DNA of 64,000 nt, from positions 32,001-96,000 of the forward strand of contig CAZALK010000007.1 of the NCBI GenBank assembly GCA_964486045.1. Reading direction: 5' to 3'. Shown here piece after piece: positions 4,262 through 25,827 of this stretch. Both the position numbers and the translations under genes were made by a program. Position 1 is the stretch's first letter. Every line of letters begins with the position of its first letter. Under the pieces are notes generated by a model. The model saw only the letters and a program-made list of their open reading frames with translations. It was not told the DNA's origin and ran no database searches. Origin of the DNA: an uncultured archaeon. Lineage in GTDB: Archaea > Asgardarchaeota > Lokiarchaeia > Sigyniarchaeales > SOKP01.

Positions 4262-4867
4262 ATGAATGAAGTAAAGGAAAATCAAATCTCTCTTGATGAC
4301 ATTGATTTACCAGAAAAAATCCCTACAAAATTTATAAATAATCGAGTTATTGTTTTTAATCCACTTTTTGCATCATATTTATACGTAAAAGGTGTAAAGG
4401 GTCAACGTTTTTTTGGCTCACCATTAGGAATTAATAAGCCACGTTTAGAATATTTTTCGAAACCTTCGGAATTATCTCTCATTGAAGGCCTTTATCTACT
4501 AGAGGAAGAACATATCACCATTTTTGACGTAAAAGAAAATAAATATTTAGACTCAGAAGAATTCCATGAAATAGCAAAAGCTGTTCATAGCAAGTTTGAG
4601 GAAAAATACATAATTTACAGAGACTTGAGAGAAAAGGGATACATTCCGAGGCCAGGCCTTAAGTTTGGAGCAGATTTTGTTACGTATAAAAAAGGCCCCG
4701 GATTAGAACATTCCCTCTTTATGGTTCATGTTTTACCTCATGATTCTGAAATTACTGCAATAGATATGGTTAGAGCGGGTAGGCTCGCAACTTCTGTGAG
4801 GAAAAAGTTTGTAATCGCAAATCCATTGACGAAATCATATTATTTCTTTGAATGGTTCAAACCGTGA
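4262..4867 (+). CDS. endA: tRNA-intron endonuclease (EndA) catalytic subunit
   Basis: LSLIEGLYL, YRDLREKGY, GLKFGADFVTY..GPG.EHS and R.A.SVRKK; the Tyr/His/Lys catalytic triad is present. Confidence 0.93.
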   Translation: MNEVKENQISLDDIDLPEKIPTKFINNRVIVFNPLFASYLYVKGVKGQRFFGSPLGINKPRLEYFSKPSELSLIEGLYLLEEEHITIFDVKENKYLDSEEFHEIAKAVHSKFEEKYIIYRDLREKGYIPRPGLKFGADFVTYKKGPGLEHSLFMVHVLPHDSEITAIDMVRAGRLATSVRKKFVIANPLTKSYYFFEWFKP

Positions 4868-22434: not shown

Positions 22435-23241
22435 TTGAAAGCATTTATAGGAATAGATATTGGCTCATTAGCAACCAAGATTGCTTTACTTGATAATGAA
22501 AATTTGTTGGATTTCCGAACAGAGAGATCTACCTACGACTTTAAGAGAATAGGGCTCAATTTGTTTAATGATATCCTAGAAGCAAACAATCTAAGCAGAG
22601 ATGAAGTTTTTGTTATGTCGACTGGCTACGGTCGGAACACAATCGAATTCGCTGATGATCGAATTACTGAAATAACAGCCCACGCAAGAGGAGTACAGTT
22701 CTTCTTTCCAAAGACTCACTCTGTGATAGACATTGGCGGTCAAGATAGTAAAGCCATTTTGATATCAGAAAAGACGGGGAATGTGATTGACTTTCAGATG
22801 AATGATAAATTTAGAATTTAAATTTTAAAGTCAAAATGCGCTGCCGGCACAGGCAGGTTTTTGGAAGTCATGGCAAATGCCCTTGAAGTCCCCATTGAGG
22901 ATATTGGAGGATTAGGTCTACAATCAAATAACCCAGCGTCAATAAGTTCTACATGTACAGTTTTTGCTGAATCTGAAGTTATTTCACTTTTTGCAAAAGG
23001 AACCAAGAAAGAAAATATAGCCTCAGGGATTCATAAATCCATTGCAAGAAGAGTTGCAGGCATGGCTAAACGTATAGGTGTAGCTCCTTTACTAGTTTTT
23101 TGTGGAGGTGTAGCCAAGAATATAGCTGTTAAAAAATTCCTAGAAGATGAGTTAGGATTTGAAATAGTTACTCCTGATCAACCAGAACTGACTGGAGCCA
23201 TCGGAGCAGCCTTAATTGCTCAAAAAAATAATGGTGACTAA
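22435..23241 (+). CDS. 2-hydroxyacyl-CoA dehydratase activator (HgdC/BadFG ATPase), split by a 27-nt intervening sequence
   Basis: GIDIGS, STGYGR, EITAHARG, IDIGGQDSK, DFQMNDK-[27 nt]-CAAGTGRFLE, ISSTCTVFAESE, GGVAKN and GAIGAA. Both halves are in the same frame; the joined product is 259 aa. Confidence 0.92.
22809..22835 (+). other. candidate bulge-helix-bulge (tRNA-type) intron in mRNA
   Basis: UGAU/GUCA 4-bp central helix, two AAA bulges, 8-bp inner stem UUUAGAAU/AUUUUAAA with a UUAA loop. It contains an in-frame TAA, and its removal gives GAT AAA TGC (D-K-C). Confidence 0.8.
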
Positions 23242-23326: not shown

Positions 23327-24463
23327 ATGAAAATGGCCAATTCTGAGCTCTTATCGGAATATTATATATACCTTAAGGAAAAGAAGGAAAAGGGTAAAAA
23401 AATTGTAGCTTTTATGTCTCATGATAATATTCCTGAAGAATTAATAGACGCTGCGGGATTTGTTCCCTTAAGGATGATTTTTGCGGGAAATGATGAATTA
23501 ATGGATGCTAGTCATGATTTCCTCTCTCCGTCAACTTGTGCATTCGCTCAATCTTGTATAGGGGCGTTTTCCATTAAACCAGACAAATATAAGTTTGTAG
23601 AATTAATTGATTATTTTATTGTCTCAAATCATTGTGTTTCAGATATATGTGCTTCTGAAGTTATAGCCAAATACTTTAACATACCCCGCTTAAATTTTTA
23701 TGTTTCATACACTAACACTGAGAGTAGTTTAAAATATTTTAAAATTGAGTTATTAGAATTAAAAGCACAACTTGAAGAGATAAAAGAAACCAAAATAGAT
23801 GCTCAAGATTTAATAAATAGTATTAAGAATTATAATAGTCTTAAGCAAAAGTTATTAGAATTAAGCAATTTAGCAGTGGAGGGGTCTCAGAAGTTAAAGA
23901 TTTTACAAAAAGCGATGTTATACGGACCAGATATCCTTCCTGAATTAGAAACACTTATTCAAGAAAAGAAAAATATCCATAAACCAAGCCATTCCAAAGA
24001 TATTTTACTTACTGGTTGTTCTATTTTCATTGATGATTACTTAAATGAATTAATTGAAGAGGGTGGTGGCAACGTGATCTTTTTTGATACATGGGTTGGC
24101 TTTAATTATTATTCCCAAATCTTTGAAGAAAATGTGCTAGATTCTTCAAAAGATCCGATTGACTTAATAACCCATCGATTTAAGAGAAATATTTATGGAG
24201 ATCATTCAGTTCCTAACTTTTTGGAGAGTAAGATTTCACAAATAGAAACATATTCGAAGAACTATACAAATAAAACGGGAAAGAAAATAGGTGTTATAAA
24301 TCACATTATTAAGTTTTGTGACCATATGTCTATTATGTCCTCACATTTAAAAAACCTATTACAGGAAAAGGGTATTTCAGTATTGAACCTTGAACGAGAT
24401 TATTCTAGAGCCAATAGAGGACAGTTATCAACAAGAATAGAAGCATTTATAGAGATGTTGTGA
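23327..24463 (+). CDS. 2-hydroxyacyl-CoA dehydratase subunit (HgdB/BcrC-like)
   Basis: PEELIDAAGFVP, TCAF, KFCD and GQLSTRIEAFIEML. Confidence 0.88.
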   Translation: MKMANSELLSEYYIYLKEKKEKGKKIVAFMSHDNIPEELIDAAGFVPLRMIFAGNDELMDASHDFLSPSTCAFAQSCIGAFSIKPDKYKFVELIDYFIVSNHCVSDICASEVIAKYFNIPRLNFYVSYTNTESSLKYFKIELLELKAQLEEIKETKIDAQDLINSIKNYNSLKQKLLELSNLAVEGSQKLKILQKAMLYGPDILPELETLIQEKKNIHKPSHSKDILLTGCSIFIDDYLNELIEEGGGNVIFFDTWVGFNYYSQIFEENVLDSSKDPIDLITHRFKRNIYGDHSVPNFLESKISQIETYSKNYTNKTGKKIGVINHIIKFCDHMSIMSSHLKNLLQEKGISVLNLERDYSRANRGQLSTRIEAFIEML

Positions 24464-25827
24464 AAAAGATGAGTTTAGTAGCGGATGAATTGATAAGATT
24501 TTCCTCTGTTTTAAAGATAACCCATAATCTTTTAATGGGAAGAGATTACCTTAAGAAAAAAAAGTTTAGAGAGAAAAAGAAGTTAATAGCCGTAGCCTTA
24601 CCTCTTTCGGACTTAGTTTATTCTTTCCCAGATTTAATTCCAATATTACCAATACGAATGCATGAATTTGATGTTCAAAAATATTTCAAATATTTAGGTT
24701 CTGCTTCAAATATTGTTGGGTGGGACGGTGTTTCTAGCCTTTTAGGTTTTTTGAAAAAACTAGGTTTAAAAAATGTCAGCCAAACCATCGATGATACAAT
24801 TGAAAATGTAATCGATGCCATAACCAACAAATATAATGAAATGTATGACTTAGGTGAAGAAAGTGGAATCCCCACGGATTTTTGTTACGGTGTTAAAACG
24901 CTCTACGGAATGAATGTATCAAAAGGAAAGAACTGTGCTGCGAATTTAAATTATACTATACGATGTAGTGCTTGGAATAAATATTTAGAATCATTAAAAA
25001 CAATTGGAAATCATTCTAAGCAAATTTGGATTGAAATTCCTCCAAGGAATATAGGAAATACATTAGAACTTTTTATTGATAACATAAACAATGGGATAAA
25101 TGAGTTAGAGAAAATTAGCGATCACGGTTATAGTGATAAAGTCTTTAGAGATCATCTACAAACTGCCAATCAAATACGTCAGTCTTACAAAGATATTATT
25201 TATGAAATAAGTACTTCGGATTTTTATCCATGCAATCCAGCAACCTTTAGTGAAATTCTCGCGTTATTAAATATTAGCTTTCATGATTACAATTCAAATG
25301 CTACTCGATTTAAAGATAATATTGCTTCTTTATTAAATGAGATGAGAGGGAGGGTAAGAAAAGGCATTGGGATGGATGTTTCCGGAATGCCCAAAATATT
25401 AATTACACCCATGTTCGGTGGTTGGGAACCGAAGACGCATCGGATAATCGCGGAGAAGAATGGGAGAGCTTTGTACGGAGACTGGGATATGTTAGGTTTC
25501 TTAGACCATGTCCCGATAACAAATCGTGTTGATCCTGTTGAGGCTTATGCGAGATTTTTGATGGATATTACTGCAAACGGAATAGGCTGTGACAATAACA
25601 CGCTTACAGATTCATATGTAAGATTAGCTAAGAACCTAAATGTAGATGGATTGGTTTTTGTGCAGGTCTTTGGGTGTCACTCTATATCAAATTGCTATCC
25701 CATGCTAAAACAAAAAATTCATTCAGAATTGGAGATACCAACAATATCCTTGACTTTTAATAAAATGGGGGAAAATTTAGAGCAAGTTCGTACCAGACTC
25801 GGTGCATTCATGGAGATGTACAAATAA
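24460..25827 (+). CDS. 2-hydroxyacyl-CoA dehydratase subunit (HgdA/B family)
   Basis: DFCY, RC, VDGLVF...GCHS and QVRTRLGAFMEM; overlaps the previous gene (GTGA). Confidence 0.82.
   Translation: MKKMSLVADELIRFSSVLKITHNLLMGRDYLKKKKFREKKKLIAVALPLSDLVYSFPDLIPILPIRMHEFDVQKYFKYLGSASNIVGWDGVSSLLGFLKKLGLKNVSQTIDDTIENVIDAITNKYNEMYDLGEESGIPTDFCYGVKTLYGMNVSKGKNCAANLNYTIRCSAWNKYLESLKTIGNHSKQIWIEIPPRNIGNTLELFIDNINNGINELEKISDHGYSDKVFRDHLQTANQIRQSYKDIIYEISTSDFYPCNPATFSEILALLNISFHDYNSNATRFKDNIASLLNEMRGRVRKGIGMDVSGMPKILITPMFGGWEPKTHRIIAEKNGRALYGDWDMLGFLDHVPITNRVDPVEAYARFLMDITANGIGCDNNTLTDSYVRLAKNLNVDGLVFVQVFGCHSISNCYPMLKQKIHSELEIPTISLTFNKMGENLEQVRTRLGAFMEMYK

What the first reader, a model, noticed from the sequence alone, without database searches (positions are those of the whole stretch)
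22809..22835. Candidate bulge-helix-bulge mRNA intron in a metabolic gene (HgdC activator) of a probable Asgard archaeon
Seen: the activator gene reads DFQMNDK, then 27 extra nt containing TAA, then CAAGTGRFLE in the same frame. The RNA folds as UGAU(22803-06) AAA UUUAGAAU-uuaa-AUUUUAAA GUCA(22830-33) AAA: a 4-bp helix flanked by two 3-nt bulges, an 8-bp inner stem, and an imperfect exon-exon stem (CAGAUGAA/UGCGCUG). Established: EndA cuts after the second nucleotide of each bulge. Applying that rule removes exactly 22809-22835 and regenerates GAT-AAA-TGC, restoring the MNDKCAAG motif whose Cys ligates the [4Fe-4S] cluster (259-aa product). BHB introns in protein genes are known mainly from crenarchaeal cbf5. 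Inference: tRNA-type splicing of a metabolic mRNA, possibly gating dehydratase activation, and conceptually similar to non-spliceosomal HAC1/XBP1 splicing. I know of no such report for Asgard archaea but cannot search.
Basis: partly seen in the sequence, partly recalled or inferred. Interest (0 to 1): 0.95.

Follow-up and report, generated by a model that had tools for sequence, protein, structure and literature searches.

The report
tRNA-type mini-intron in Asgard activase gene
A 27-base insert with a stop codon in an iron-sulfur "activator" enzyme gene of a Loki-type Asgard archaeon is very probably a tRNA-style intron cut out of the messenger RNA, a kind of protein-gene splicing that the papers I could search document only for one gene (cbf5) of Crenarchaeota.

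Summary
At 22809-22835 a 27-nt insert with TAA splits MNDK|CAAGTG of a BcrAD/HgdC-type activase (Pfam 7e-57; PDB 1HUX 3.5e-61), one codon before the residue aligned to 1HUX Cys127.

The reading as a bulge-helix-bulge (BHB) intron is strongly supported by comparison, although no RNA data exist. Six congeneric genomes and 11 metagenome contigs carry inserts at the same nucleotide, giving 15 distinct variants of 27-38 nt. Eight of the 15 are not multiples of three. All have exon UGAU paired to intron GUCA, 3-nt bulges and an end-to-end hairpin whose sequence turns over with compensatory changes. Cutting after the second bulge nucleotide restores Asp-Lys-Cys and, wherever the contig is complete, an intact 259-263-aa ORF in the genome copies.

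Both exons are under strong purifying selection (dN/dS 0.03-0.10, as in intronless orthologs). The genome encodes two EndA paralogs and RtcB. Single-copy rpoA1, EF-2 and uS10 of this genome carry similar inserts, so mRNA splicing must operate.

The outer exon helix is weak, so this is a relaxed BHB. The proposed "gating" role is unsupported: the nearest relatives lack the intron.

This scan has already noted such introns in many other Asgard genomes.

The parts
22435..22808 (+). Exon 1 of the BcrAD/HgdC-type activase gene. It starts at TTG and ends with the first two nucleotides (AA) of the Lys codon.
   Evidence: ORF list. Pfam PF01869 spans residues 5-262 of the read-through product. The spliced ORF is 259 aa.
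22809..22835 (+). 27-nt BHB-type intron (phase 2, inside the Lys codon) with an in-frame TAA at 22819-22821.
   Evidence: A 9-residue gap falls exactly here in the alignment to 1HUX.
22836..23241 (+). Exon 2. It begins with the third nucleotide of the Lys codon, then CAAGTGRF..., and runs to the stop at 23239-23241.
   Evidence: The segment directly after the intron encodes CAAGTGRF in all seven genome copies despite synonymous differences.
22803..22806 (+). 5' strand of the central 4-bp helix H (UGAU, exon; from the Asn-Asp codons).
   Evidence: It pairs with GUCA 22830-33. The same pairs U-A, G-C, A-U, U.G occur in all 7 genome copies.
22807..22809 (+). 5' bulge AAA. The predicted cut lies between 22808 and 22809.
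   Evidence: Rule from PMC2738675. In relatives the third bulge nucleotide is A, C, U or G, while the first two stay AA.
22810..22829 (+). Inner intron hairpin h' (UUUAGAAU-UUAA-AUUUUAAA, 8 bp).
   Evidence: Every one of 9 aligned pair positions shows 2-3 standard pair types across the 7 genome copies. All 15 variants fold end to end.
22830..22833 (+). 3' strand of the central helix H' (GUCA, intron).
22834..22836 (+). 3' bulge AAA. The predicted cut lies between 22835 and 22836. It is only loosely closed by a weak outer helix.
   Evidence: The bulges in relatives are AAA, AUA or AAG, and the last nucleotide is always A or G, which completes the Lys codon.
4262..4867 (+). EndA catalytic-type subunit (tRNA-splicing endonuclease), the presumed enzyme that cuts the intron.
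   Evidence: PF01974 1.4e-29 and PF02778 2e-05. The best solved relative is the Aeropyrum pernix EndA chain 3P1Z_B, 1.4e-33. A second paralog lies on another contig.
23327..25827 (+). Two HGD-D family genes (23327-24463 and 24460-25827), the presumed dehydratase or reductase subunits served by the activase.
   Evidence: PF06050 1.9e-53 and 2.4e-34.

Best explanation
The 27 nt at 22809-22835 are an archaeal bulge-helix-bulge (tRNA-type) intron inside the coding sequence of an HgdC/BcrAD-family activase gene of a Loki-type (Promethearchaeota) Asgard archaeon.

Proposed mechanism: in the pre-mRNA, the exon nucleotides UGAU (Asn-Asp codons) pair with GUCA near the intron's 3' end. This forms the 4-bp central helix. 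It is flanked by a 3-nt bulge on each strand and closed on the inside by an 8-bp intron hairpin. The outer exon-exon helix is weak, so the motif is of the relaxed kind. The two-subunit splicing endonuclease EndA (one subunit lies in this window) cuts after the second nucleotide of each bulge. RtcB joins the exons. This regenerates GAU-AAA-UGC and yields a 259-aa activase with both cluster-binding cysteines.

Unspliced RNA could give only a 128-aa fragment without them, so splicing is obligatory for function. Splicing is most likely constitutive. The intron is one of a population of ~30-nt mini-introns in protein genes of this genome, rather than a switch specific to this gene.

Shown: the anatomy, conservation of the shape at this site in 15 variants, restoration of the frame, purifying selection on both exons, and presence of the enzymes. 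Inferred: the cleavage and ligation themselves.
For: 1. Same-site inserts in relatives. Of about 45 congeneric orthologs, seven carry an insert at exactly this nucleotide: 27, 30, 30, 32, 32, 32 and 35 nt. Eleven metagenome contigs add eight more variants of 29-38 nt. Eight of the 15 lengths are not multiples of three, so these cannot be tolerated coding inserts.
2. One rule, cutting after bulge nucleotide 2, restores an intact 259-263-aa ORF in all seven genomes. It also restores an intact ORF of 260-309 aa (stop to stop) in every metagenome contig that is complete.
3. The 5' bulge is AAA, AAC, AAU or AAG and the 3' bulge is AAA, AUA or AAG. The junction codon is always AAA or AAG, which encode Lys. 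For AAC...AUA a cut one nucleotide earlier in each bulge would give AUA, which encodes Ile.
4. The inner helix keeps pairing while its sequence changes. There are 2-3 standard pair types at each of 9 positions and only 5 non-standard cells. Hairpin z-scores run from -1.9 to -9.3 against shuffles.
5. The BHB-constrained fold equals the local minimum-energy fold, or lies within 2.8 kcal/mol of it, in all seven.
6. dN/dS is 0.03-0.10 in pairs that include intron-bearing genes, in both exons. Intronless pairs give 0.03-0.07. dS ranges from 0.5 to above 1.
7. The codons directly after the intron vary synonymously yet always encode CAAGTGRF.
8. The machinery is present: two EndA paralogs, with the A. 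pernix heterotetramer subunit as best PDB match, and RtcB. Asgard EndA is reported as the (alpha-beta)2 type with the loop that confers broad specificity (PMC5829648).
9. Single-copy rpoA1 carries a 30-nt strict BHB insert with TAA. EF-2 carries a 30-nt insert. The only uS10 match in the genome carries a 31-nt insert.
10. The insert is present in the assemblies of two runs.
11. The cut positions and the use of relaxed BHBs by hetero-oligomeric EndA are documented for cbf5 (PMC2738675).
Against: - There is no RNA evidence. No spliced read, circular intron or cDNA is available for this organism.
- The outer exon-exon helix is weak, so the 3' cut site lies in a loosely defined bulge.
- The G000 hairpin is the shortest and weakest of the 15 (-1.2 kcal/mol, z -1.9).
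- A competing 8-bp helix between exon 22787-94 and the intron 3' part appears in the minimum-energy fold of a longer context.
- Four intact paralogs exist in the genome, so loss of this copy would not necessarily be lethal.
- The G000 terminal branch is longer than that of its intronless sister.
- The eleven metagenome variants were found with a pattern that fixed GUCAA and the A/G at the junction. Those two features are not independent evidence in that set.
- My decoy-controlled genome scan did not show a global excess of ORF-fusing BHB motifs.
Confidence: 0.88

Rival explanations
1. The intron is real, but its removal is conditional. Splicing would act as a switch that gates production of the oxygen-sensitive activase, analogous to HAC1/XBP1 unconventional splicing.
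For: Unspliced RNA ends at TAA before both cluster cysteines, so the splicing level would set the protein level. A competing helix in the longer fold could in principle modulate BHB formation. RtcB, the ligase of XBP1 splicing, is present.
Against: Most orthologs lack the intron, including the nearest at 90% and 88% identity. Similar mini-introns sit in rpoA1, EF-2, uS10 and other unrelated genes. The hairpin sequence is free to vary, so there is no conserved sensor-like element. No Ire1-type twin 7-nt loops are present.
Confidence: 0.07
2. The gene is a decaying pseudogene. A small palindromic insertion (a MITE- or repeat-like hairpin) broke it, and the BHB likeness is fortuitous.
For: Four intact paralogs could cover the function. 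The insert is an AT-rich hairpin in a 31% GC genome, where such hairpins are common: about 600,000 loose BHB-like hits. The G000 branch is somewhat long.
Against: Fifteen different inserts sit at the identical nucleotide, and each is removable by one rule that restores the frame. No other stop or frameshift occurs in any of the seven genes. dN/dS is 0.03-0.10 in both exons over dS of 0.5 to above 1. All catalytic motifs are intact.
Confidence: 0.04
3. The insert is skipped by the ribosome through programmed translational bypassing, as in T4 gene 60 or mitochondrial 'byp' elements, rather than being removed from the RNA.
For: In G000 the insert is short, begins after AAA and ends before AAA (matching take-off and landing codons), holds a stop soon after take-off, and forms a hairpin.
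Against: In G004 the flanks are AAC...AUA and in G052 they are AAU...AAA. No matching take-off and landing pair there would yield the conserved Lys. The conserved exon-intron helix UGAU/GUCA and the 3-nt bulges have no role in bypassing. EndA-type geometry explains all 15 variants.
Confidence: 0.03
4. The gene is expressed as two separate polypeptides, an N-terminal 128 aa and a C-terminal part from an internal start such as TTG 22861, which assemble into a split activase.
For: A 126-aa ORF starts at 22861.
Against: The stretch between the intron and that start (KCAAGTGRFL) holds the first cluster cysteine. It is conserved at the amino-acid level with synonymous changes in all copies. It must therefore be translated in continuity with something upstream. 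The frameshifting variants leave no start in the right place.
Confidence: 0.02

Closest known systems
BHB intron of the cbf5 (pseudouridine synthase) pre-mRNA in Crenarchaeota (Watanabe 2002; Yoshinari 2006; Yokobori 2009, PMC2738675)
   Same: Both are short introns inside a protein-coding sequence. Both have a relaxed bulge-helix-bulge motif with cuts between the second and third bulge nucleotides. Both occur in hosts with a hetero-oligomeric EndA. Both lie next to a catalytic-site codon and show lineage-specific presence and absence.
   Different: The gene differs (a metabolic Fe-S activase rather than an RNA-modification enzyme). The phylum differs (Asgard/Promethearchaeota). Here the intron is one of several such introns in one genome, including rpoA1, EF-2 and uS10. 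The cbf5 introns have cDNA and in-vitro cleavage proof, and this one has none.
Non-canonical tRNA introns of Asgard and TACK archaea (PMC5829648; bioRxiv 10.64898/2026.10.13.758758)
   Same: The same motif and the same enzymes (EndA, RtcB). Sizes are similar. Gains and losses are similarly patchy. Part of the motif must be supplied by exon sequence.
   Different: [quoted passage not shown]
HAC1/XBP1 unconventional mRNA splicing (Ire1 plus tRNA ligase/RtcB)
   Same: Both are non-spliceosomal, protein-catalysed cut-and-ligate reactions on an mRNA, with RtcB-type ligation in metazoa. In both, removal changes the protein that is produced.
   Different: The nuclease is unrelated (Ire1 rather than EndA). 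The cut sites there lie in 7-nt loops of twin stem-loops, not in 3-nt bulges. That system is stress-regulated, and no sign of regulation is seen here.
HgdC, activator of (R)-2-hydroxyglutaryl-CoA dehydratase (PDB 1HUX), and the BcrAD/BadFG ATPases
   Same: The spliced product aligns over its full length to 1HUX (E 3.5e-61). It has Cys residues at the positions aligned to Cys127 and Cys166 of 1HUX, and the gene sits next to two HGD-D subunit genes.
   Different: The substrate of the downstream enzyme is unknown. The genome holds several paralogous activases.

Membership tests
Archaeal EndA-dependent BHB intron (pre-mRNA type) | [quoted passage not shown] | tested here: met
   UGAU/GUCA with AAA bulges in G000. 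The same helix and 3-nt bulges occur in all 7 genome copies. Two copies have one extra unpaired nucleotide next to a bulge.
Archaeal EndA-dependent BHB intron (pre-mRNA type) | Flanking helices on both sides (strict hBHBh'). | tested here: inconclusive
   The inner helix h' is strong and covaries. The outer exon-exon helix is weak or absent in most copies. The motif is therefore the relaxed HBh'-like form, as in most cbf5 introns (PMC2738675).
Archaeal EndA-dependent BHB intron (pre-mRNA type) | Cuts between bulge nucleotides 2 and 3 give a functional mature RNA. | tested here: met
   This rule restores D-K-C and an intact ORF in 7 of 7 genomes (259-263 aa). It also does so in every complete metagenome contig (260-309 aa, stop to stop).
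Archaeal EndA-dependent BHB intron (pre-mRNA type) | The structure is maintained by compensatory change among homologous introns. | tested here: met
   There are 2-3 standard pair types at each of 9 inner-helix positions, and 15 distinct hairpins.
Archaeal EndA-dependent BHB intron (pre-mRNA type) | The host encodes a broad-specificity (two-subunit) EndA and an RtcB ligase. | tested here: met
   Two PF01974 genes, with the A. pernix EndA subunit as best PDB match. RtcB scores 557 bits. The specificity loop L1 itself was not examined.
Archaeal EndA-dependent BHB intron (pre-mRNA type) | Spliced mRNA, excised or circular intron, or in-vitro cleavage has been observed. | not testable with these tools
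   No RNA run holds this DNA. A metagenome scan for the G000 junction found nothing.
BcrAD_BadFG / HgdC-type activase | Full-length match to the family, with the two cysteines that bind the bridging [4Fe-4S] cluster. | tested here: met
   PF01869 6.7e-57, profile positions 1-271 of 271. 1HUX 3.5e-61, with Cys aligned to chain positions 127 and 166. That these two are the cluster ligands is from my knowledge of the 1HUX paper and was not checked here.
BcrAD_BadFG / HgdC-type activase | Genomic association with HgdA/B-type (HGD-D) subunits. | tested here: met
   Two PF06050 genes lie directly downstream.
Translational bypass element (T4 gene 60 / byp) | Matching take-off and landing codons flank the skipped stretch. 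| tested here: not met
   The G004 flanks are AAC...AUA and the G052 flanks are AAU...AAA. Neither can give the conserved Lys by hopping.
HAC1/XBP1-type unconventional splicing | Cut sites in 7-nt loops of twin stem-loops recognised by Ire1. | tested here: not met
   The cut sites here lie in 3-nt bulges around a 4-bp helix. I did not search for Ire1.

The most novel reading that the evidence does not exclude
The activase intron belongs to a population of ~30-nt mini-introns that colonise protein-coding genes across Loki-type Asgard genomes. These include essential single-copy genes such as rpoA1, EF-2 and uS10. The introns would be gained repeatedly, or transferred between lineages, at sites where codons can supply the exon half of the BHB motif. 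Routine, obligatory pre-mRNA splicing by the tRNA-splicing machinery would then exist in the closest archaeal relatives of eukaryotes. The patchy tree at this one site would reflect ongoing intron mobility, not only loss.
Probability: 0.3. Interest if true: 0.9.

Novelty: new member of a known kind. Interest (0 to 1): 0.78.

Why it matters
In the papers I could search, splicing of archaeal protein-coding transcripts by the tRNA-splicing endonuclease is documented for one gene family, cbf5 of Crenarchaeota. This case differs in three ways:
- It is in a metabolic gene.
- It is in the archaeal group closest to eukaryotes.
- It sits beside similar introns in RNA polymerase, EF-2 and ribosomal protein genes of the same genome.

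If confirmed by RNA data, three things follow:
- Asgard gene calls that treat such loci as pseudogenes or split genes are wrong.
- Protein-catalysed mRNA splicing is a routine step of gene expression in these organisms.
- Intron gain and loss in protein genes can be studied in a prokaryotic relative of eukaryotes.

The 15 same-site variants give a ready natural mutagenesis series for what a two-subunit EndA accepts.

Tried and rejected
- **RNA evidence.** The look-up of sequencing runs listed no RNA holder. Only DNA contigs could be laid.
- **Metagenome scan for the G000 junction.** I scanned for the G000-specific junction, spliced or unspliced. There were no matches.
- **Genome-wide BHB scan.** About 600,000 loose BHB-like hits were filtered for fusing open frames of at least 50 codons on each side. 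I compared these with decoy cut positions and found no clear excess (about 2,700 in every geometry; 23 against 10-18 under the strictest filter). Adjacent same-strand genes swamp the signal, and introns near gene starts are missed. The number of mRNA introns in the genome is therefore not established, and only individual cases were verified.
- **One scan hit rejected.** A hit in an HdrA-like gene is more likely an in-frame TGA (selenocysteine) than an intron.
- **Whole-region fold.** The fold gave z -1.3 and an alternative helix, so folding energy alone does not single out the BHB.
- **Exon codon bias.** Intron-bearing copies are 7 of 7 AAT GAT, against 26 of 39 in intronless ones. This is suggestive only (about 0.06 if independent, which relatives are not).
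- **Readings rejected.** Pseudogene, ribosomal bypass, split protein, tolerated in-frame insert with read-through, and assembly artefact. Reasons are given under the rivals and in the observation check.

Full report
**What is there**

The window is G000:C7:32001-96000 of a 5.18-Mb, 31% GC genome. An ORF starting at TTG 22435 encodes the first 128 residues of a BcrAD/BadFG-family ATPase and stops at TAA 22819-21. The same frame continues after 22836 to the stop at 23241.

Read through, the product matches PF01869 end to end (6.7e-57). It also matches the solved HgdC activator 1HUX (3.5e-61). A 9-residue gap lies exactly between ...QMND and KCAAGTG, one codon before the residue aligned to Cys127. 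The second cysteine aligns to Cys166. That these two cysteines bind the bridging [4Fe-4S] cluster is my recollection of the 1HUX work, not a result obtained here.

Two HGD-D genes follow directly. An EndA gene lies at 4262-4867.

**The motif**
- Exon UGAU (22803-06) pairs with GUCA (22830-33).
- AAA bulges follow each strand of that helix.
- The 20 nt between them form an 8-bp hairpin.
- With 14 and 10 nt of flank, the BHB-constrained fold (-4.3 kcal/mol) is essentially the minimum-energy fold (-4.4).
- The outer exon-exon helix is poor, so this is a relaxed HBh'-like motif rather than a strict hBHBh'.
- In a 71-nt context the minimum-energy fold instead pairs 22787-94 with 22827-34, and the stability is unremarkable (z -1.3).

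On this sequence alone the case would be suggestive only.

**Comparative evidence**

This is what decides the matter. The genus holds 54 species genomes, and about 45 have an ortholog of roughly 80% identity. Most read MNDKCAAGTG without interruption, including the nearest relatives G049 (90%) and G062 (88%).

Six other genomes have an insert at exactly the same nucleotide: G004 (30 nt), G052 (30), G013 second copy (32), G045 (32), G042 (32) and G005 (35). A pattern scan of metagenome contigs found 11 more carriers with eight further sequences of 29-38 nt. That pattern fixed GUCAA and the purine at the junction, so only the other features of this second set are independent.

Across the 15 distinct variants:
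- Eight lengths are not multiples of three.
- Every variant folds into an end-to-end hairpin. Z-scores against shuffles run from -1.9 to -9.3, and G000 is the weakest.
- In the seven genome copies, each of nine inner-helix positions shows two or three different standard pairs, with only five non-standard cells.
- The helix UGAU/GUCA is invariant in those seven.

The cut positions are fixed by the bulges. The 5' bulges are AAA, AAC, AAU and AAG. The 3' bulges are AAA, AUA and AAG. Cutting after the second nucleotide of each is the rule documented for cbf5 (PMC2738675). It always yields AAA or AAG, which encode Lys. For the AAC/AUA pair, a cut one nucleotide earlier in each bulge would give Ile.

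With that one rule all seven genes become intact ORFs of 259-263 aa. Every complete metagenome contig likewise gives an intact ORF of 260-309 aa, stop to stop.

**The genes are not decaying**

Pairwise dN/dS for pairs that include intron-bearing genes is 0.03-0.10, in both exons. This equals the intronless pairs (0.03-0.07), at dS from 0.5 to above 1. The codons immediately after the intron differ synonymously between copies yet always encode CAAGTGRF. This excludes a split protein restarting at the next start codon.

Ribosomal hopping is excluded by the copies whose flanking codons do not match (AAC...AUA and AAU...AAA).

An assembly artefact is excluded. The insert is present without indels in Logan assemblies of two runs: one at depth 272, which may be the source of this DNA, and one at depth 81, which carries two SNPs elsewhere.

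**Machinery and context**
- The genome has two EndA-family genes. The one in the window is closest to the Aeropyrum pernix heterotetramer subunit 3P1Z_B.
- This fits the report that Asgard archaea carry (alpha-beta)2 EndA with the loop that gives broad substrate range (PMC5829648).
- It also fits a recent preprint finding two paralogs in 44 of 60 Asgard genomes, together with heavily interrupted tRNA genes (10.64898/2026.10.13.758758).
- RtcB is present.
- ARAGORN finds only 31 tRNAs here, 20 of them with introns. This is in line with many interrupted tRNA genes.
- Titles of related records place the genus in Promethearchaeota/Promethearchaeia. Promethearchaeum syntrophicum MK-D1 is a relative of the same order, with 60% identity.

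**Other mRNA introns in the same genome**

Earlier first-reader notes of this scan listed further candidates in this genome. I checked three essential genes myself:
- **rpoA1.** It is single-copy and holds a 30-nt strict BHB insert with TAA at C13:44101-44130. Removal restores ...CMGHFGH|IELARPV. The Rpb1 domain-1 profile aligns straight across the insert.
- **EF-2.** It holds a 30-nt insert at C13:92018-92047 with helix GCGC/GCGU. Removal restores the P-loop AH|IDHGKTT.
- **uS10.** The only uS10 match in the genome lies in two frames. These are joined by removing a 31-nt BHB-flanked stretch at C9:148818-148848.

An abundant organism cannot live without these genes. The economical inference is that it splices BHB introns out of mRNAs as a matter of course. 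That in turn makes splicing of the activase intron very likely.

Follow-up notes on other Asgard genomes report exactly spliced messages in public RNA data. I did not test those and they do not count as support here. They do mean that the scan has met this phenomenon before on other DNA.

**Evolution**

On a maximum-likelihood tree of 46 orthologs the seven intron-bearing genes are scattered. Well-supported branches force at least five changes. Either an old intron was precisely lost many times, or it was gained or transferred repeatedly at one site. The shared 3' end ...GUCAA and the related hairpins in some pairs favour common descent with loss. This is not resolved.

Intron-bearing copies all keep AAU GAU, whereas a third of the intronless ones use AAC or GAC. 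This is a weak hint that the intron constrains the exon codons.

**What is not supported**

The idea that the intron gates activase production, HAC1/XBP1-like, has no support. The intron is dispensable in close relatives, its sequence is free apart from its shape, and similar introns sit in unrelated genes.

**Limits**
- No RNA data exist for this organism.
- The junction scan of metagenomes was empty.
- My genome-wide decoy test was uninformative.

**Verdict**

This is a real feature and very probably an EndA/RtcB-spliced mini-intron (confidence about 0.88). It is a new member of the rare class of archaeal pre-mRNA BHB introns. I found no paper describing such introns in Asgard protein genes.

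Noticed in passing
G000 contig C13:44101-44130 (outside the window; locus L117:802-831): The single-copy RNA polymerase subunit A' gene (rpoA1) carries a 30-nt strict BHB insert with TAA. Removal restores ...CMGHFGH|IELARPV, and the Pfam Rpb1 domain 1 profile aligns across the insert.
   Followed up: yes
G000 contig C13:92018-92047 (locus L137): The EF-2 gene carries a 30-nt BHB insert (helix GCGC/GCGU) inside the P-loop codons. Removal restores AH|IDHGKTT.
   Followed up: partly
G000 contig C9:148818-148848 (locus L134): The uS10 gene lies in two frames. Removing a 31-nt stretch flanked by helix UGCA/UGCG and bulges AAA/ACU joins ...SVCK to SQGIRKNGPIPLPTK. The Pfam S10 profile matches only positions 22-98 in one frame.
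   Followed up: partly
G000 contigs C5:195271-195300, C1:759271-759300, C18:43552-43581 (loci L118-L120): Three more 30-nt strict BHB inserts with in-frame stops. Two are in AIR-synthase-related genes and one is in a LOR/scramblase-like gene. Only the first clearly lies inside a Pfam domain match.
   Followed up: partly
G000 contig C17, about 4666-4704: An HdrA-like gene is flagged by my scan, but excision would delete conserved residues. An in-frame TGA (selenocysteine) is the likelier explanation.
   Followed up: no
G013 contigs C40:1058-1819 and C56:55096-55904: One genome bin holds two orthologs of the activase, one intronless and one with the 32-nt intron. This could be two strains in one bin (contamination about 7%) or a true duplication.
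   Followed up: no
G006 contig C1:2476425-2477180 (locus L029): A paralogous activase in a congeneric complete genome has one in-frame TAA somewhere other than the MN(D/R)KCAAG site. It may be another intron.
   Followed up: no
whole genome G000: ARAGORN calls only 31 tRNA genes, 20 of them with introns and several with odd anticodon calls. This suggests that many heavily interrupted tRNA genes are missed by standard tools.
   Followed up: no
window 22787-22794 with 22827-22834: A perfect 8-bp complement lies between the exon codons (I-D-F) and the 3' part of the intron. It competes with the BHB central helix in longer folds. Weaker versions exist in some relatives.
   Followed up: partly
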